Source: Verrucomicrobiota bacterium
Lineage (GTDB): Bacteria > Verrucomicrobiota > Verrucomicrobiia > Limisphaerales > CANJSG01
Direction: 5' to 3'
NCBI GenBank assembly: GCA_038209745.1
Contig: JBBQXJ010000003.1
Coordinates: 46,284-110,283, forward strand
DNA length: 64,000 nucleotides
Part shown: piece by piece, positions 55,301 through 61,300 of the stretch
How the letters are laid out: each line of letters opens with the position of its first letter
Numbering within the stretch: the stretch's first letter is position 1
Program-made: the position numbers

Positions 55301-58300
55301 GTCGACGCCGGCGGCGGCGTAGGCTTTCTGTTTGCTCATTTTAAGGGCAGGAGAGTGGCGGCAACCGTCGGTTCGTGTCGAGTGGCCAGTCGGTGAGCGG
55401 CTTGAAGCGGAAGGGGGCTGACGACGGATCGCCGAAACGAGATTTCGGAGATTGTTTCCTTGCCGATCCCAGGACGAGGAACTATTCCCACCCCGCTCTT
55501 TGAATCGATACGGGAATGGTCCGCCATTCCCAACGTGAATGCAGGAGGGAACCCCGTGGGAATCGGGGACGGTTGCGCCACTGTAACGGGTTACAAGCTC
55601 CCAAGAGCCACTGGAACGGAGACGTTCTGGGAAGGCGGGAGCGAGGTTTGAGGCCCGGAGTCAGGATATCGATCGCACTCACGCTCGTCAGGATTCCGCC
55701 CGGCTCTTCGCCGGGCGTGGTCCGCTTCTCCGCCAAAGAGAAGGACGGGGCCAGAGAAACCGCCCGTTGCGGTTTCGTTTGCGTCTTCGTTCGCCTTCAT
55801 ACTTCCGGCCGGGTGATGAAGGCATTTTTTATGTCCATCCCGGCCGAACGCACTGGTCTCCGCCGCTTAAACCCGGCTTCCGCACGCCCGTTCCGGGCGG
55901 GCGGAACCACAAGACCTGTACTCATGAAACTGAAAGTGCGTTTGTCCGTCTCCGCCGCCCTCTTGGGCGCATCCTTCACTTCTTCGGCGCAATACGCGTC
56001 GTCCGTCATCCGCTACGATCTCGGAACTGGCGGTGCTGCCGGCTACACCGATTCGGCCACCGTTCTCGGCCAACCGTCGCGGAACAATCCGTTCGGTCCC
56101 GTCGATCCCTTCAACAGCCAATACGCCAAGACCGACCTGCTCTCCATCGGAGCCGGCGGCTTTCTGGTGGTCAAGATGGACCATGCCGTCGGGAACGATC
56201 CGGGGCACCCCTTCGGCCTCGATTTCTTGGTCTTCGGCAACGCCGGCTTCAACATCGTCAACGGCGACTACAGCGGCGGCGGCATCACCGACGGCTCGCT
56301 CTACGGCGCCAACACCGGTTCCACCCGCGTTTCCGTCAGCGCCGACGGCGTCCAGTTCTTCACGCTGAACACCTCCATCGCGCCGATCGTGGACGCGTAT
56401 TTCCCGACCGACGGCGCGGGCGACTTCACCAAACCGGTGGACCCGTCGCTCACGCCGGCCTCGTTCAACAACCTCGGACTCGCCGGCATCGGTCTGGCCT
56501 ATGGCGGTTCCGCCGGCGGCACCGGCTATGATCTAGCGTGGGCGGTCGATGGCAACGGCGCCTCCGTGGTCGTGCCCTCCGTCGAATACATCCGCATCGA
56601 CGTGCTCAGCGGCAAGGCCGAAATCGACGGGATCTCGGCGGTGTCGGCGGTCACACCGGTGCCCGAGCCGTCGAGCATGGCGCTCGGCGCCTTGGGCTTG
56701 GGCGCGGTCGCTTTGCTGCGTCGTCGGAAGGCCTGATCCCGATCGGTCTGCTCGATGAAACGACCGTGTTCATTGCTTCTCCTTCTTCTGCTGCTGGCGC
56801 GGTTCGCGCCGGCAGCAGAGTGGAAGGAGGACTTCAATTCGGATCCGTCGCCTCGGGGTTGGCGGGTCTCCGGAGATGCTTCGTTGTTCCAGTGGAACCC
56901 CGCGACCGGCGACTTGGCGGTGACGTGGGATTCGTCGAAGACCAACTCGTTCTTCTACCGCCCACTCGGCACCGTCCTCGCCGAGACGGATCCGTTCGAG
57001 GTCGGTTTCGACGTGGTGTTCTCCGAGATCACGGCGGGCGGATCCGACGGAGCGGGAGGAACCTTCGAGCTGGCCTTCGGGCTCTATGGGACGGTGGCCG
57101 CGTTTCGGACGAACTTCCTCCGCGGCGCCGGCGTGAACGCGGCCAACGGACCGCGTGACGTGGTGGAGTTCACCTACTTTCCCGACACGGTGAACGGCTT
57201 TGGCGACACGATTTCCCCGTCCATCTGGTCGCGCAGCAACCAGCCGAATGTGGACTTCATTTTCCCCTATCCGCTCCTCGTCGGCGTGCCCTATCGGATC
57301 GAGATGAAATACGATCCCGCAACGAGAGCGCTCGACACGGTGCTCGTCTCGAACGCCGTGCCGGTGCTGACGAACCGGGTCGTGTTGTCGGCCGCCTCGA
57401 CGGGCTTTCGCCTCGATGCGATCGGCGTCGCCAGCTACCGGTCCACAGCGGGAGATTCGATCCTGGCCCACGCCCGGATGGACAACTTCACGGTCGTCGT
57501 CCCGGATCCTCCGTTGCTGGATCTGGCGTGGACACCCGACGGCCCCGAGCTTGGCTTCCTGTTGCCCACGAACTGGACCGCGGCCATCGAGCGGACCGTC
57601 GATTTGTCGTCCTGGGAAAGGGTCGGTGAGACCAATGACATATTGCATGGCGACGGCACGTTCCGACATGTCGTCGACGCGGCGTCGCCCGCGACGAACG
57701 CGGTCTACCGACTGAAGCTTTCGCGGCCATGACCGGCAATCGGAACAACCTGCGAAGCCGCCTGGGATTCACCCTGGTGGAGCTGCTCGTCGTCATGGTC
57801 ATCGTCGCGATCCTCGCCGCGATGGTCCTGCCCGCGACTTCGCGCGCCAAGCGGGCCGGGCAGCGCGCGGTGTGCGCGAACAACCTTCGTCAGCTCGGTC
57901 TGGCCACGCATCTCTACTGGCAGGACAACCGCGACGCGGCCTTCAAGTATCGCGGCGCGGCCGTGGACGGAGGCGACGTCTGGTGGTTCGGCTGGCTCGA
58001 ACGCGGAACAGAAGGGAATCGCCGGTTCGATTCGTCGAGAGGCGCGCTTTGGGCCTGCCTCCAGGGGCGCGGCGTCGAGGTTTGTCCCGCCTTCGACTTC
58101 TCCGATCCGCTCTACAAGCCCAAGGCCCGGGGAGCTTCCTGGGGCTACGGGTACAACCTCGCCTTGTCGACCGCGCAGAGCGCTCCGGCCTTCCGCGTTT
58201 CGCGCGTTGCCCGGCCGTCCGCCACCGTGCTCTTCGCCGACGCCGCGCAGGTCAACGACTTCCAGGCGCCGGCATCGCCCGACCATCCGATGATCGAGGA

Positions 58301-61300
58301 ATTCTACTACGTGGACAGCGGCCAGAAGACCGTCCACTTCCGCCACGCCCAGCGCGCGGTAGCGGTCTTCATCGACGGTCACGTCGAGCCGCAGACCATG
58401 GCGGCGAACTCGCTCGATGGCCGGTTGCCGCGCGAGCGAATCGGACGGATCGATCCGGCGCGGATGCAGCCATGAGCCTGGTCAAAGCGCTTGCACGGTC
58501 TCCAAGCAGTGTGCAATTTTTTGGCGGCGTTTACGGTGGGTGCCGCAGCAGTCCCCGGTTGGGCAAGGGTGTCTGTGGAATGCCGATCCTGAATGAAAAA
58601 GCCAAGACCGATGGGTCTCTCACGGTGCGTCCGCACCGGCCTTCTCCTGGCACAAACCTGTTTCTCTGCCGAGCGTAGTTGTTAGACCATGATGGCTTCC
58701 GTTTCTGGTAATCGCCCCTCCATAGACGGCGTCTGTCCCGCCTGTGGCGAGCCCAACGGCTGCCAGTCCAGATCCGTCGGATCGGACGCGAAGACGTGCT
58801 GGTGTTTCGACGTGAAGATCGGTGCGGAAAACATCCGTCGGATCGCCCAGAACCTTCCCTCCGTCGGCTGCCTCTGTGTCTCCTGTCTCACCGCCTCCGC
58901 CGGTGATCCTGACGAACCGTCCGAGCCCGGGCGCGACTACTACATCACCGCCGCGGGAACGCTTGTCTTCACCGCCGCTTTCCATCTCCGCCGAGGAAGC
59001 TGCTGCGACAATGCCTGTCGCCACTGCCCGTATCAGAGAGGATCCTGACGAAAGGCCGCCCGACACCGGGACGCTATGCCCGGTCTATCCCAGCTGCGAA
59101 GGAGACAGGCCCACCGCGACGATGCTGCAGGCTTGGACGACATTCAGCCCCAGCCGTCCGGCCTCCGCCAGCACCTCGTCCGAGTCCGTCCCCGGATTCA
59201 GCCAAAGTTCGTCGCAACCCTTCGCCGCGATGTCCGGCAGCACCTGCAGCAAGACCGGCGGCGGCAGGTAGACGCTGACGAGTTGCGGCCGTTCCGGAAG
59301 ATCCAGCACCGATCTGAACGCCGGCACCCCTTCGATCTGGGACTCCTTCGGATTGACCGGAAAGACGGTGTGTCCGGTCTGGAGATAGGCGCGGACGGCC
59401 TTGTTGGAGAACTTGCTCCGGTCATTCGAGGCTCCGACGACGGCGACGGTCTTCATGTCGCAAACGGTGGGGCCGGACGGGATGCAAGGCAACCCAGACG
59501 CCCCTTGCCGCCCGTTCGTCCGGTCCCTACGCTCCCCCGCCTAATGTCTCTGAAAGCTGGCATCGTCGGTCTGCCCAACGTCGGGAAATCCACCCTGTTC
59601 AACGCCGTGACCCGCACCCGCAAGGCGCAGGCGGCGAACTACCCCTTTTGCACGATCGATCCGAACGTCGGCATCGTCACCGTGCCCGATGAGCGCCTGT
59701 CTGTGCTCCAGCAGATCGCCAAGACCAAGGTCGTCATTCCCGCCGCCATCGAGTTCGTCGACATCGCCGGCCTCGTGAAGGGCGCCGCCACCGGCGAAGG
59801 ACTGGGCAACAAGTTCCTCAGCCACGTCCGCGAGGTCGACGCCATCGTCCAGGTCGTCCGTTGCTTCGAGGACGCGGACGTCATCCACGTCGCCGGCAGC
59901 GTCGATCCCGTCCGCGACATCGAGATCATCAACACCGAGCTGATCCTCGCCGACATGGAGACCGTGAAGAAACGCCTCGAACGCGTGGCCAAGGACGCCA
60001 AGCGCGGCGACAAGGAAGCCATCGCCGAACAGGCCGTGCTCCAGAAGATCGAACCCGTCCTCGACTCCGGCAGACCCGCCCTGCTGGCCGAGCTCACGAA
60101 CGAGGACCGAGCCATCTCCCGCGCGCTGTTCCTCATGACGGACAAGCCCACCATCTTCGCCTGCAACGTGAAGGAAGGCGATCTCGCCACCGCCGACACG
60201 AATCCCTTCGTGCTCAAGGTCCGCGAATTCGCCAAGACCCACTTCGCCTGCGAAGCCGTCGTCATCAGCGCCCAGATCGAGAGCGACCTCGTTGATCTGA
60301 CCGACGAGGAGGCCAAGGCGTTCCTCGGCGAGCTCGGCGTGAAGGAATCCGGCGTTGGTGCGCTCATCCGCGCCACCTACCATTTGCTCGGGCTTCGCAC
60401 CTACTTCACCGCCGGCGAAAAGGAAGTCCGCGCCTGGACCATCCACAACGGCGACACCGCGCCCAAAGCCGCCGGAGTCATCCACAGCGACTTCGAGCGC
60501 GGATTCATCAAGGCCGAAACCGTCGCCTACAAGGACCTGGTGGAATGCGGCTCCGTCGCCGCCGCCCGCGAAAAGGGGCTCTACCGCATGGAAGGCAAGG
60601 AATACGTGGTGAAGGACGGCGACGTGCTGCTCTTCAAGTTCAACGTCTGAGGCCCGTCCTCGAACCGGGACACGACAGTCCCCCCGAACCGGACGATCCG
60701 GAGTGCGCTGAGCCGGCGTGACCGTGGAAAGAAACCGAGGGCGCGGGACCTCGCCGGCTCAAGGACTTTCCGCTCCAGATTCCGGCGGCGGAGGCTTCGG
60801 CGAATGTCGGACCCGGCGGGCGAAGAAGAGGGCGCCGCAATAGGCCGCGACCGTGACGGGCAGGGCGATGACCACCGATCCCAAGAGCAGCGGCCTTCCG
60901 AGCGTGAACAGCTTCGACCAATGGAACCAGCCGCCGGGCGATGTCTGATGCAGGTGCAGCTTGGCCGGCAGTTCATGGGGATGGCTCATCAGCCAGTAGC
61001 CGATGTCGTATTCCCAGCGCAGCAACAGCGGCGAGAGCGGCAGGGTGACGTCGTGCAGCGTCACCGCGATGGCGGCCGCCACCACGCTTCCGCGCAACAA
61101 CCGGGTGATCCCCAGCGCCAGCAGCGTCTTGAAGCCCCATAGCGGGATGAACCCCATGAACACCCCGACCGCGACGCCCAGTGCAATGGCGTGCGGCGTG
61201 TCCTTGATGTGGAACACCCCGCCCGCCTTTGACCTGATCCAGTGAATCGGCGACATGGATTAAAGAGTAGCCCATCGGGCCTTGCTGCAAAACTTCTCCC

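What a model noticed while it worked through the whole genome (the two positions that open the first line are those of the whole stretch)
55547..58475. Cobalamin-riboswitch operon encodes a PEP-CTERM-anchored BtuH-like B12-binding protein, a lectin-fold protein and a pseu [...]
The only cobalamin riboswitch found in this genome (C3:101830-101953,+) heads a three-gene operon with no annotated function: g00361 (270 aa, signal peptide + PEP-CTERM anchor), g00362 (325 aa, secreted, no Pfam) and g00363 (248 aa, prepilin-type N-methyl / H-X9-DG pseudopilin-like). g00361 is a remote homologue of the C-terminal B12-binding domain of the Bacteroides surface lipoproteins BtuH2/BtuG1, here tied to the cell by a PEP-CTERM tail instead of a lipid. 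The organism lacks corrin synthesis genes but has MetH, class II (B12) ribonucleotide reductase, CarH and a PduO-type adenosyltransferase, so it must scavenge B12. I propose that this operon is a cell-surface cobamide capture device o [...]
Evidence so far: Riboswitch: Rfam RF00174 67.2 bits (rna.tsv; call 110). Operon: call 106. AlphaFold model of g00361 from a 10-sequence alignment (pLDDT 65.7, call 121): VIA-align against 48,161 PDB representatives gives 7biz_B 'B12 binding lipoprotein from B. thetaiotaomicron' Z 13.6 (rmsd 2.5, 146 aligned, 20% id) and 8blw_B (BtuG1 of the BtuB1-BtuG1 complex) Z 13.0, next best unrelated CBMs Z 8.4. Profile of the same alignment against all PDB sequences: 8blw_B E 8.5e-5, 7biz_A E 3.5e-4, shared motifs around GG-x-t-v-x-f, DF-x-v-x-GNA and f-x-i-x-WAvd-x-G. 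Conservation: RF00174 searched in 26 Limisphaerales genomes, 32 hits, 30 loci fetched; the first ORF behind the riboswitch is a g00361 homologue (43-79% [...]
(Added by a program. Inside this text positions count along the whole contig: contig position 46,284 is position 1 of the stretch shown here. "Call 12" and the like, gene names such as g00115 and contig names such as C1 are that model's own, and its searches are not shown. The text may have been shortened before it was handed on; [...] marks where a part breaks off. The agent that wrote the report below was given it as the finding of a first reader that could run no searches.)

Follow-up and report, generated by a model that had tools for sequence, protein, structure and literature searches.

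The report
B12-regulated binder, lectin and pilin operon
A vitamin-B12-sensing RNA switch controls three secreted proteins of no named family (a remote relative of a gut-bacterial B12 binder, a lectin-shaped partner and a pilin-like protein), and related bacteria carry either this gene set or the usual outer-membrane B12 importer but not both, so it is probably an undescribed way of acquiring the vitamin.

Summary
A cobalamin riboswitch (55547-55670, 67.2 bits, the only one in the genome) is followed by a conserved terminator hairpin and three tightly packed genes.

g00361 has a signal peptide and a PEP-CTERM tail. With a better model (pLDDT 88.3) it still matches the B12-binding "H domain" of Bacteroides BtuH2/BtuG1 best: Z 14.8 against 9.6 for the next fold.

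g00362 is a ConA-type lectin fold plus a small C-terminal module. g00363 is a type IV pilin-like H-X9-DG/DUF1559 protein.

New here: g00362 plus g00363 are the conserved core, and g00361 is an accessory.
- g00361 and g00362 are fused in 7 of 61 genomes.
- g00361 was not found in 10 genomes that keep the other two.

Across the 61 genomes of the order, 45 carry the cassette and 13 have a riboswitch-controlled BtuB-type TonB receptor. None has both.

The host has MetH, class II RNR and PduO. I found no MetE, NrdB, CobS, CbiB or BtuB orthologue.

I read the operon as a B12-repressed corrinoid acquisition system that stands in for BtuB, possibly through a type IV filament. No binding or transport was tested.

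The scan noted similar cassettes on other DNA. I found no paper describing one.

The parts
55547..55670 (+). Cobalamin riboswitch aptamer (RF00174)
   Evidence: 67.2 bits against a gathering score of 31.5, E 4.5e-15, model positions 46-168. It is the only match in the genome.
55793..55830 (+). Candidate intrinsic terminator of the expression platform: a GCCTTCAT...ATGAAGGC hairpin at 55793-55823, then T6 at 55825-55830
   Evidence: Read from the sequence and found by my script. A hairpin plus T-run passed the script's criteria in 34 of 39 cassette leaders. By eye, about 30 of them share the GCCTTCA...GAAGG stem. The simple scanner did not list it because its loop exceeds 8 nt.
55924..56736 (+). 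g00361 (A1 family), 270 aa: signal peptide, BtuH-like domain (about residues 22-242), PEP-CTERM tail (residues 245-269)
   Evidence: ORF. PEP-CTERM PF07589 at E 4.9e-6. Model pLDDT 88.3. 7biz_B and 8blw_B both at Z 14.8. Profile against 8blw_B E 2.4e-5. More than 579 homologues and 1805 50%-identity cluster representatives at E <= 1e-3.
56755..57732 (+). g00362 (A2 family), 325 aa: signal peptide, ConA-type lectin/glucanase jelly-roll (about residues 18-254), C-terminal beta module (about residues 255-325)
   Evidence: No Pfam or NCBIfam match. Model pLDDT 88.7. Best fold match 1ciw_A at Z 16.2, followed by many lectins and glucanases at Z 13-15. It lies behind the riboswitch, or is fused to A1, across the order.
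57729..58475 (+). g00363, 248 aa: type IV pilin-like protein (G|FTLVE prepilin motif, H-X9-DG motif at H206...D216 G217) of the DUF1559 kind, in a B12-riboswitch-linked orthologue group
   Evidence: N_methyl PF07963 at 31.4 bits and DUF1559 at 20.8 bits, below its cut-off. The N-terminus matches geopilin, PilA and GspG at E 4e-12 to 4e-10. Atlas clusters carrying N_methyl plus DUF1559 score 0.98. Orthologues score >= 226 bits and paralogues <= 134 bits.

Best explanation
The operon is a B12-repressed corrinoid acquisition cassette of the cell envelope, and it takes the place that BtuB holds in related genomes.

Shown here:
- When B12 is bound, the aptamer should favour the conserved terminator hairpin at 55793-55830 and shut the operon off.
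- g00361 is exported, carries a PEP-CTERM tail for exosortase-dependent surface attachment, and is predicted to fold like the corrinoid-binding H domain of BtuH2/BtuG1.
- g00362 is exported and is its physical partner, because the two are often one fused protein.
- g00363 has a prepilin leader and belongs to one orthologue group found only in cassette genomes.

Inferred:
- g00361 binds the corrinoid at the surface.
- g00362, with or without g00361, hands it to g00363.
- The host's type IV filament machinery builds g00363 into a short filament or places it at a filament tip. The genome has a PilM...secretin cluster, 15 PilB/PilT-family ATPase frames and one prepilin peptidase.
- That filament carries the vitamin through the secretin into the periplasm.

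My odds:
- The cassette serves corrinoid acquisition: about 0.8.
- It replaces BtuB for crossing the outer membrane: about 0.55.
- The route is a type IV filament through a secretin: about 0.35.

The inner-membrane step is unknown.
For: Riboswitch and terminator:
-.

BtuH-like fold of g00361:
- Z 14.8 to 7biz_B residues 314-593 and to 8blw_B residues 393-660, against Z 9.6 for the next fold.
- Foldseek ranks the same two structures first and second.
- Profile E 2.4e-5 to 8blw_B.
- Passages of PMC10404256 say that the roughly 250-residue C-terminal extension of BtuG1 is a BtuH domain.
- Passages of PMC8941943 say that the C-terminal domain of BtuH2 binds B12.

Linkage to the riboswitch:
- 27 of the 29 order genomes with a g00361 match have it on the same contig and strand, 0.2-2.5 kb behind an RF00174 match.
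- One of the two exceptions, G001, has an RF01482 AdoCbl riboswitch there instead.
- In 80 named species-representative loci, my leader profile matched upstream of all 80.
- In those loci the g00362 homologue followed in 70 of 72 with room, and the g00363 orthologue in 60 of 66 with room.
- RF00174 was confirmed in 15 of 15 sampled loci.

Fusions of g00361 and g00362:
- 7 of 61 genomes.
- 13 of 72 loci.

g00363 orthologues:
- 44 of 61 genomes have an orthologue at >= 226 bits, and the next best hits score <= 134 bits.
- 38 of the 44 lie directly behind a B12 riboswitch.

Complementarity with BtuB:
- 13 of 61 genomes have a TonB-dependent receptor as the first gene behind the riboswitch.
- None of the 13 has a g00363 orthologue, a g00361 match or a full-length g00362 match.
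- No cassette genome has an orthologue of either riboswitch-linked receptor type.
- G000 and G012 are in the same genus and differ in which system they carry.

Host dependence on B12:
- MetH, class II RNR and PduO are present.
- MetE and NrdB were not found.
- CobS and CbiB were not found.
- Only two TonB receptors exist. One sits in a siderophore-type locus with TonB-ExbBD, the other beside DUF4154 and a histidine kinase.

Filament machinery:
- PilM-x-x-secretin cluster.
- 15 T2SSE-family frames, 4 of them above the PilT cut-off.
- Prepilin peptidase.
- Three exosortases.
- In G024 the PilM...secretin cluster follows g00363 directly.

Beyond the order:
- 14 of 150 other genomes of the phylum have a g00363-like match at 158-228 bits.
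- 6 of the 11 loci fetched have RF00174 upstream on the same strand.
- A g00362-like ORF (L190, L191, L194) or a g00361-like ORF (L193) lies upstream of the pilin-like gene in 4 of the 11; of these only L190 and L191 also showed the riboswitch.
Against: - No binding, transport or expression data exist.
- The B12-contact residues of BtuH2 (Gln333, Asn399, His476, Tyr510, Trp511, Trp577) could not be mapped onto g00361.
- The sequence link to 7BIZ itself is weak (E 0.19).
- W206, invariant in the 36-sequence alignment, is not kept in the longer variant proteins.
- g00362 matches generic lectins and glucanases, and no B12 binder is among its 50 best fold matches.
- In 10 genomes the putative binder g00361 is missing, so another part must bind B12 if the reading is right.
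- The link to a filament or secretin rests on one gene adjacency (G024) and on general presence of the machinery.
- The host keeps a TonB-ExbBD system and two TonB receptors that could import B12 without a riboswitch.
- No inner-membrane B12 transporter was identified: there is one lone Peripla_BP_2 gene and FecCD only at 36.8 bits.
- The genomes are MAGs, 70-100% complete.
- The 61 are relatives, so the 45-against-13 split is not a set of independent events, and I made no tree-aware test.
Confidence: 0.4

Rival explanations
1. Capture or hoarding only. The cassette binds and stores corrinoids at the cell surface, as BtuH and BtuJ do in Bacteroides. It hands them to a transporter that is not under riboswitch control, either one of the two TonB receptors or an unknown porter. 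The pilin-like protein only tethers or organises the binders.
For: The BtuH-like fold and the surface tail of g00361. BtuH proteins are accessory binders and not channels (PMC8941943 passages; PMC10404256 passages). The host has TonB-ExbBD and two TonB receptors.
Against: It does not explain why the cassette and riboswitch-controlled BtuB never occur together in 61 genomes. In Bacteroides more than 80% of btuH homologues share an operon with btuB. The two host receptors sit in an iron-type locus and a signalling-type locus. The conserved core is the lectin-fold protein plus the pilin, not the BtuH-like binder.
Confidence: 0.2
2. g00363 is not a filament subunit. It is a periplasmic corrinoid-binding protein held in the inner membrane by its pilin-type helix, a BtuF-like role. 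It receives B12 that enters by another route and passes it to an inner-membrane transporter.
For: No clear BtuF-BtuCD set is present in the host. The globular part of g00363 is strongly conserved, with two invariant cysteines, an HFRH...DGH motif and many aromatic residues. In G016 a Peripla_BP_2 gene follows the pilin gene.
Against: It leaves outer-membrane crossing unexplained in genomes without BtuB. The prepilin leader G|FTLVE with E at +5 is the signature of proteins that are cleaved and polymerised by type IV machinery.
Confidence: 0.15
3. A B12-starvation response that does not handle B12 itself. A lectin, a surface protein and a pilin are made only when B12 is scarce, to attach the cell to B12-producing partners or to polysaccharide surfaces.
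For: g00362 has a legume-lectin fold and keeps part of the ConA metal-loop motif. Pilins and PEP-CTERM proteins often serve adhesion. Riboswitches in the same order also repress B12-independent enzymes (nrdAB and metE, 9 loci), so repression by B12 does not prove transport.
Against: The best fold match of g00361, by 5 Z units, is a B12-binding domain. Strict exclusion with BtuB is not expected for an adhesion system. Sugar-binding residues were not examined.
Confidence: 0.1

Closest known systems
BtuH2 (BT1956, PDB 7BIZ) and the H domain of BtuG1 (PDB 8BLW chain B) of Bacteroides thetaiotaomicron
   Same: g00361 is predicted to have the same fold as the roughly 250-residue B12-binding domain: Z 14.8 and 20-23% identity over 155-157 aligned residues. 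There is borderline profile homology. Both sit behind a B12 riboswitch and both are exported to the cell surface.
   Different: g00361 has no lipoprotein signal, no Ig-like or propeller domains and no btuB or btuG beside it. It is anchored by PEP-CTERM. It is often fused to a lectin-fold protein and is always followed by a pilin-like gene. Contact residues and binding are untested.
BtuB-BtuG-BtuH-BtuJ extracellular cobamide relay of Bacteroides (PMC10404256 passages read; PMC13616437 search listing and abstract start only)
   Same: Both are riboswitch-controlled loci that combine several secreted proteins around vitamin capture in an auxotroph.
   Different: The relay ends in a TonB-dependent transporter. 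Here no such transporter is in the locus or found as an orthologue in the genome, and a type IV pilin-like protein holds the conserved position.
DUF4465 (BtuJ-type) B12 binders, including D5EK51 of Coraliomargarita and a Haloferula protein from the same phylum (PMC13398666, Results read in part (part 1 of 2, plus section 16) and term search)
   Same: They are secreted jelly-roll B12 binders of Verrucomicrobiota with genomic links to B12 transport.
   Different: Neither g00361 nor g00362 matches PF14717: none of 36 and none of 37 family members at E <= 0.1. The paper reports neighbours that are ABC transporters, TonB barrels and propellers. A term search of its text finds no mention of pilin, DUF1559 or PEP-CTERM.
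Type IV filament subunits (PilA, GspG, ComGC) and the DUF1559 / H-X9-DG expansion of Planctomycetota and Verrucomicrobiota
   Same: g00363 has the prepilin leader, the hydrophobic alpha-1 helix (E 4e-12 to geopilin, 4e-10 to GspG) and the H-X9-DG motif. Its atlas neighbours carry N_methyl plus DUF1559.
   Different: Its globular domain has no solved relative by sequence. It forms a single orthologue group tied to B12 riboswitches, unlike the roughly 20 paralogues in the same genome. No function is published for DUF1559 in the library searched: 4 papers mention it, none about B12 judging by title and abstract start.

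Membership tests
Cobalamin riboswitch (Rfam RF00174) | Covariance-model score above the curated gathering score | tested here: met
   67.2 bits against 31.5, E 4.5e-15. The match covers the core only, model positions 46-168 of 189.
Cobalamin riboswitch (Rfam RF00174) | An expression platform that can switch the downstream genes | tested here: met
   Hairpin at 55793-55823 plus T6. A hairpin plus T-run was found in 34 of 39 cassette leaders. Switching itself was not tested.
BtuH-type B12-binding domain | Same fold as the C-terminal domain of BtuH2 and the H domain of BtuG1 | tested here: met
   Z 14.8 to both, with rmsd 3.8 and 3.2 over 157 and 155 aligned residues. The next fold scores Z 9.6. 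Foldseek ranks them first and second.
BtuH-type B12-binding domain | Significant sequence homology | tested here: inconclusive
   Profile E 2.4e-5 to 8blw_B but 0.19 to 7biz_A. The single sequence finds neither. No Pfam family matches.
BtuH-type B12-binding domain | Conserved corrinoid-contacting residues (BtuH2 Gln333, Asn399, His476, Tyr510, Trp511, Trp577) | not tested
   The residues are taken from PMC8941943. No residue-level superposition was available to me.
BtuH-type B12-binding domain | Binds B12 | not testable with these tools
   Needs purified protein.
BtuH-type B12-binding domain | Surface lipoprotein encoded with btuB | tested here: not met
   g00361 has a Sec-type leader and a PEP-CTERM tail. 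There is no TonB receptor in the operon. No orthologue of either riboswitch-linked receptor type was found in the genome.
PEP-CTERM / exosortase substrates | C-terminal PEP motif, transmembrane helix and basic tail, with an exosortase in the genome | tested here: met
   PF07589 at 26.8 bits against a cut-off of 20.7. 34 of 36 family members match. Three Exosortase_EpsH genes are present.
DUF4465 (BtuJ) B12 binders | Match to PF14717 | tested here: not met
   No match for g00361 or g00362 at E <= 1, nor for any of the 36 and 37 family members at E <= 0.1.
Type IV pilin-like proteins | Prepilin leader with G at -1 and E at +5, followed by a hydrophobic helix | tested here: met
   PF07963 at 31.4 bits against 21.2. 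The G|FTLVE motif is in the sequence. E18 is invariant in 37 sequences. PDB pilins match at E 4e-12 and weaker.
DUF1559 / H-X9-DG proteins | Match to PF07596 and the H-X9-DG motif | tested here: inconclusive
   PF07596 scores 20.8 bits, below the 23.3 cut-off, and over profile positions 3-28 only. H206 and D216 are invariant and G217 nearly so. Atlas neighbours carry the family in 28-42% of members.
Legume-lectin / ConA-like fold (g00362) | Jelly-roll fold of the lectin/glucanase type | tested here: met
   1ciw_A at Z 16.2 over 210 aligned residues, and 208 chains with Z >= 8. Foldseek E about 1e-8 to many legume lectins. Sugar binding was not tested.

The most novel reading that the evidence does not exclude
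Vitamin B12 is imported across the outer membrane by a dedicated type IV filament, without a TonB-dependent receptor. The riboswitch-controlled pilin g00363, loaded by the lectin-fold protein g00362 and where present the BtuH-like binder g00361, is extended and retracted through the PilM-secretin apparatus and carries the corrinoid into the periplasm. DNA-uptake pili carry DNA in a comparable way. The hundreds of DUF1559 / H-X9-DG paralogues of Planctomycetota and Verrucomicrobiota would then be ligand-specific uptake pilins.
Probability: 0.3. Interest if true: 0.92.

Novelty: new variant of a known kind. Interest (0 to 1): 0.8.

Why it matters
B12 is traded among microbes, and most bacteria must import it. 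The only established outer-membrane routes use TonB-dependent BtuB.

Here a large, mostly uncultured soil and freshwater order (titles read Limisphaerales, Pedosphaera and Verrucomicrobia) mostly lacks a BtuB orthologue. It puts its single B12 riboswitch in front of three proteins of no named family.

If the cassette imports B12, three things follow:
- There is a second solution to a textbook transport problem.
- BtuH-type binding domains reach beyond gut Bacteroidetes.
- The huge DUF1559 / H-X9-DG pilin-like family gets its first ligand-defined, testable function.

The proteins are small and soluble, so simple binding assays can decide the first step.

Tried and rejected
- Complex prediction for g00362 with g00363 was not available, so no interaction test was run.
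- The atlas holds no model of g00363 or g00362.
- The long variant proteins (640-813 aa) did not bridge to BtuH. The single sequence and a 5-sequence profile found no B12 protein in the PDB. hhalign does confirm that they contain a g00361-type domain (Prob 99.9, E 1.6e-31).
- g00362 as a DUF4465 or other B12-binder relative: no support. No Pfam match, the PDB profile finds only legume lectins at E 0.16, and no B12 binder is in the 50 best fold matches.
- A conserved fourth gene: rejected. The genes after the pilin differ from locus to locus; they include PQQ_2, acyl-CoA dehydrogenase, a kinase, GH10 and CysS.
- The two stand-alone g00362 copies (G039, G058) have no B12 riboswitch within the stretches fetched.
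- The simple terminator scanner missed the leader hairpin. The whole-leader minimum-free-energy fold pairs it differently.
- The 150 best hits of the 1.84-billion-protein profile search are all close family members, so that search gave no link to Bacteroidetes proteins.
- Literature searches that found nothing relevant:
  - 'cobalamin riboswitch' with 'pseudopilin': 1 unrelated paper.
  - 'PEP-CTERM' with 'riboswitch' and 'B12': 0 papers.
  - 'H-X9-DG': 1 unrelated paper.
  - 'DUF1559': 4 papers, none on B12 by title and abstract start.
  - 'DUF1559' or 'prepilin' returned only general pilin papers.

Full report
**What is there.** cmscan finds one Rfam match in window 50000-64000: a cobalamin riboswitch aptamer at 55547-55670 on the + strand. 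It scores 67.2 bits against a gathering score of 31.5, at E 4.5e-15, over model positions 46-168 of 189. It is the only RF00174 match in the window's genome, which is 4.58 Mb in 140 contigs and 92% complete.

About 120 nt further on lies a hairpin, GCCTTCAT...ATGAAGGC at 55793-55823, followed by TTTTTT at 55825-55830. The simple terminator scanner skipped it because its loop is long. My script found a hairpin plus T-run in 34 of 39 related leaders. By eye, about 30 of them share the same GCCTTCA...GAAGG stem. The switch therefore most likely works by transcription termination.

Three ORFs follow on the same strand:
- g00361, 55924-56736, 270 aa.
- g00362, 56755-57732, 325 aa, starting 18 nt after g00361 ends.
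- g00363, 57729-58475, 248 aa, overlapping g00362 by 4 nt.

**g00361.**
- Pfam finds only a PEP-CTERM tail at residues 245-269 (26.8 bits against a cut-off of 20.7). NCBIfam finds only PEP-CTERM tails.
- The family is large. More than 579 homologues were scored among 8000 candidates. A profile search of 1.84 billion representatives found 1805 cluster representatives at E <= 1e-3, 930 at E <= 1e-10 and 215 at E <= 1e-30.
- In a 36-sequence alignment, 34 of 36 members carry PEP-CTERM and none matches DUF4465.
- An AlphaFold model from this alignment has pLDDT 88.3 and pTM 0.81.
- VIA-align against 48,161 chains gives 7biz_B Z 14.8 (rmsd 3.8, 157 aligned, 20% identity, chain residues 314-593).
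- It also gives 8blw_B Z 14.8 (rmsd 3.2, 155 aligned, 23% identity, chain residues 393-660).
- The next hits are unrelated CBM32-type domains, at Z 9.6 and below.
- Foldseek also puts these two structures first, at E 1.1e-7 and 1.2e-4.
- A profile of the alignment against all PDB sequences gives 8blw_B at E 2.4e-5 and 7biz_A at E 0.19. The single sequence finds neither.
- Passages of PMC8941943 state that BtuH2 binds B12 through its C-terminal globular domain and name the contact residues. Passages of PMC10404256 state that BtuG1 carries a C-terminal BtuH domain of about 250 residues. Both top matches are therefore the same kind of B12-binding domain.
- I could not check whether the contact residues are kept.

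**g00362.**
- It has no Pfam or NCBIfam match, and none of 37 family members has a convincing one.
- The model has pLDDT 88.7. It shows a ConA-type lectin/glucanase jelly-roll at residues 18-254 and a small beta module at about residues 255-325.
- The best fold match is peanut lectin 1ciw_A at Z 16.2 over 210 aligned residues, followed by many lectins and glucanases at Z 13-15. Foldseek gives E about 1e-8 to legume lectins.
- The only sequence hint is E 0.16 to legume lectins around the ConA metal loop.
- The C-terminal module recurs at the ends of many large proteins in these genomes. Its atlas neighbours are unnamed Verrucomicrobiota clusters.

**g00363.**
- It has the prepilin motif (N_methyl, 31.4 bits against 21.2), a sub-threshold DUF1559 match (20.8 against 23.3), and weak pseudopilin matches in NCBIfam.
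- A 37-sequence profile matches the N-termini of solved pilins and GspG at E 4e-12 to 4e-10. Nothing in the PDB matches the globular part.
- Atlas neighbours are N_methyl plus DUF1559 clusters at a score of 0.98.
- The alignment shows invariant E18, C49, C119, H206 and D216, and strongly conserved YWFGW, GYGYN and HFRH...DGH stretches.

**Comparative genomics within the order.** I searched 61 genomes, which is G000 plus 60 others drawn from 60 genera.

- RF00174 is present in 56 of the 61.
- I fetched up to 10 kb behind every match. I then scored six-frame ORFs with profiles of the three proteins and scanned other ORFs with Pfam.

The first genes behind the riboswitches fall into three classes:
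- Class (a), 9 loci: class I ribonucleotide reductase and/or MetE, the classic B12-independent isozymes.
- Class (b), 13 genomes: a TonB-dependent receptor of about 550-710 aa (G002, G008, G012, G018, G025, G028, G029, G031, G038, G041, G044, G049, G053). G031 continues with Peripla_BP_2 and an ABC ATPase.
- Class (c): the cassette.

Variants of the cassette:
- g00361, g00362 and g00363 as separate genes (for example G000, G005, G006, G007, G011, G013-G015, G027, G043, G047, G055-G057).
- g00361 and g00362 fused in one frame, in 7 genomes (G001, G004, G032, G033, G040, G046, G048).
- g00362 directly behind the riboswitch with no g00361, in 11 genomes. In 9 of these g00363 follows it on the same contig (in G020 only a partial match). 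In G026 and G030 the g00363 orthologue lies on another contig. Ten of the 11 have no g00361 match anywhere at E <= 1e-10.
- g00361 then g00363, with g00362 elsewhere in the genome (G039, G058).
- A 640-813-aa protein followed by a more divergent pilin, in 7 genomes. This protein holds a g00361-type domain (hhalign Prob 99.9, E 1.6e-31) and, in 6 of the 7, the C-terminal module of g00362; no g00362-type match was found in G042.

G001 and G009 had no RF00174 match. Both have an RF01482 AdoCbl riboswitch just upstream of the cassette, at 59.8 bits in G001 and at 46.7 bits in G009, just under the gathering score of 50.

**The pilin is one orthologue group.**
- The g00363 profile gives 44 of 61 genomes a match of 226 bits or more. 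Every other match scores 134 bits or less.
- G000 itself has 20 matches at E <= 1e-25 but only one at 362 bits.
- 38 of the 44 orthologues lie directly behind a B12 riboswitch. The other six are on other contigs or at contig ends.

**Complementarity with BtuB.**
- None of the 13 class (b) genomes has a g00363 orthologue; their best score is 131 bits.
- None of the 13 has a g00361 match or a full-length g00362 match. They show only C-terminal-module hits at E >= 6e-9.
- The riboswitch-linked receptors are of two types. Orthologues of the G012 type (>= 175 bits) occur only in G012, G018, G025, G031, G041 and G044, with fragments in G053. Cassette genomes reach at most 77.5 bits.
- Orthologues of the G038 type (E <= 1e-30) occur only in G002, G008, G028, G029, G038 and G049.
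- The tally is 45 genomes with the cassette (44 plus G017, whose contig ends inside it), 13 with riboswitch-controlled BtuB, 3 with neither (G037, G054, G060) and none with both.
- G054 has an 84-aa fragment at a contig edge that looks like the pilin's C-terminus (118.6 bits).
- G000 and its congener G012 differ in which system they carry.
- The genomes are related MAGs and I ran no tree-aware test, so this is a strong pattern and not a probability.

**A wider, named sample.**
- A scan of species-representative genomes found 132 g00361 relatives, of which the best 80 were kept. Nearly all are titled Verrucomicrobiota, Limisphaerales or Pedosphaera MAGs. A few have odd labels that probably reflect binning.
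- My leader profile matched upstream of all 80.
- g00362 followed in 70 of 72 loci with room, fused in 13. The g00363 orthologue followed in 60 of 66 with room.
- Rfam confirmed RF00174 in 15 of 15 sampled loci. Some of these loci belong to genomes already in the 61.
- Outside the order, 14 of 150 other genomes of the phylum have a g00363-like match at 158-228 bits.
- Of the 11 loci fetched with 1.5-kb flanks, 6 have RF00174 upstream on the same strand.
- A g00362-like ORF (L190, L191, L194) or a g00361-like ORF (L193) lies upstream of the pilin-like gene in 4 of the 11; only L190 and L191 are among the 6 with a riboswitch.

**The host.**
- Present: MetH (393.8 bits), class II B12-dependent RNR, a PduO-type adenosyltransferase and three proteins with B12-binding domains.
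- Not found: MetE or NrdB, CobS or CbiB.
- It has only two TonB receptors. One lies with a PiuC-type hydroxylase, PepSY_TM and TonB-ExbB-ExbD. The other lies with DUF4154 and a histidine kinase.
- There is one lone Peripla_BP_2 gene, and FecCD reaches only 36.8 bits.
- For type IV filaments it has a PilM-x-x-secretin cluster beside an exosortase and an EpsI gene. It also has 15 T2SSE-family ATPase frames, 4 of them above the PilT cut-off, and one prepilin peptidase.
- In G024 the orthologous PilM...secretin cluster follows g00363 directly.

**Reading.** The riboswitch, the host's dependence on B12, the BtuH-like fold, the fusions and the exclusion with BtuB together make corrinoid acquisition the best reading, at about 0.8. 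Because the cassette occupies BtuB's place, I think it also serves passage across the outer membrane, at about 0.55. The pilin leader and the filament machinery make a type IV filament through a secretin the most likely single route, at about 0.35.

The rivals are capture only, an inner-membrane-anchored binding protein, and a starvation-induced adhesion system. What binds B12 in genomes without g00361, and how B12 crosses the inner membrane, remain open.

**Prior knowledge.**
- The scan's own notes list 14 earlier findings of B12-riboswitch cassettes with a DUF1559 pilin and PEP-CTERM or DUF4465 proteins in other PVC genomes. They agree with my reading, which I had formed before I looked.
- In the paper library I found no description of such a cassette.
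- The DUF4465 paper reports transporter neighbours only, and a term search of its text finds no mention of pilins.
- Supplements were not opened, so a mention there cannot be excluded.

Noticed in passing
window 58689-59048 (+): A 119-aa ORF with Cys_rich_CWC and DUF5522 domains lies 214 nt after the operon. In G044 a CWC domain is fused to a Diphthami_syn_2 protein right behind a riboswitch-controlled TonB receptor (L083). In G004 a g00361-g00362 fusion is followed by Diphthami_syn_2, DUF6580 and Diphthami_syn_2 genes (L059). These may be B12-related, but no such gene follows the cassette in most loci.
   Followed up: partly
g00362 residues about 245-325 (window 57487-57729); many loci: The C-terminal beta module of g00362 (TNW...LE...DL..W...FYR...RP) recurs at the C-terminal ends of many large proteins, in frames of 300 to 6000 aa, throughout the order. 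It may be a sorting or attachment module. The atlas shows only unnamed Verrucomicrobiota clusters.
   Followed up: partly
G000 contig C20, L099 about 1-12800: An exosortase gene, an EpsI (DUF3485) gene, sugar-transferase and epimerase genes, and a PilM-x-x-secretin cluster lie side by side. This links the PEP-CTERM sorting system and a type IV filament apparatus in one neighbourhood.
   Followed up: partly
L082 (G024) 647-9596: Here the riboswitch, g00362 and g00363 are followed directly by PilM_2, two unnamed genes and a secretin (917 aa). This is the only locus seen with that adjacency.
   Followed up: partly
L095 (G019) 564-2258: Two g00362-type domains stand in tandem in one 564-aa frame behind the riboswitch. 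Tandem g00361 domains also occur among the cluster representatives, for example P0238, P0254 and P0290, which have two matched stretches each.
   Followed up: no
L101 (G039 C25) and L102 (G058 C58): In the two genomes whose cassette lacks g00362, a full-length g00362 homologue sits elsewhere without a B12 riboswitch in the stretch fetched. In G058 it lies upstream of glycine-cleavage T and H genes, and a SAM riboswitch lies just beyond them.
   Followed up: partly
L053, L055, L092 (G051, G016, G021), first ORFs behind the riboswitch: In three of the long-variant loci, one or two unnamed ORFs of 212-235 aa with no Pfam match stand between the riboswitch and the large fusion protein.
   Followed up: no
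window 54281-55339 (-) and 52162-53613 (+): Upstream of the riboswitch, on the other strand, is a 352-aa ORF that I recognise from memory as PurM-like; it was not scanned. Further upstream is a 483-aa secreted-looking ORF with no Pfam match.
   Followed up: no
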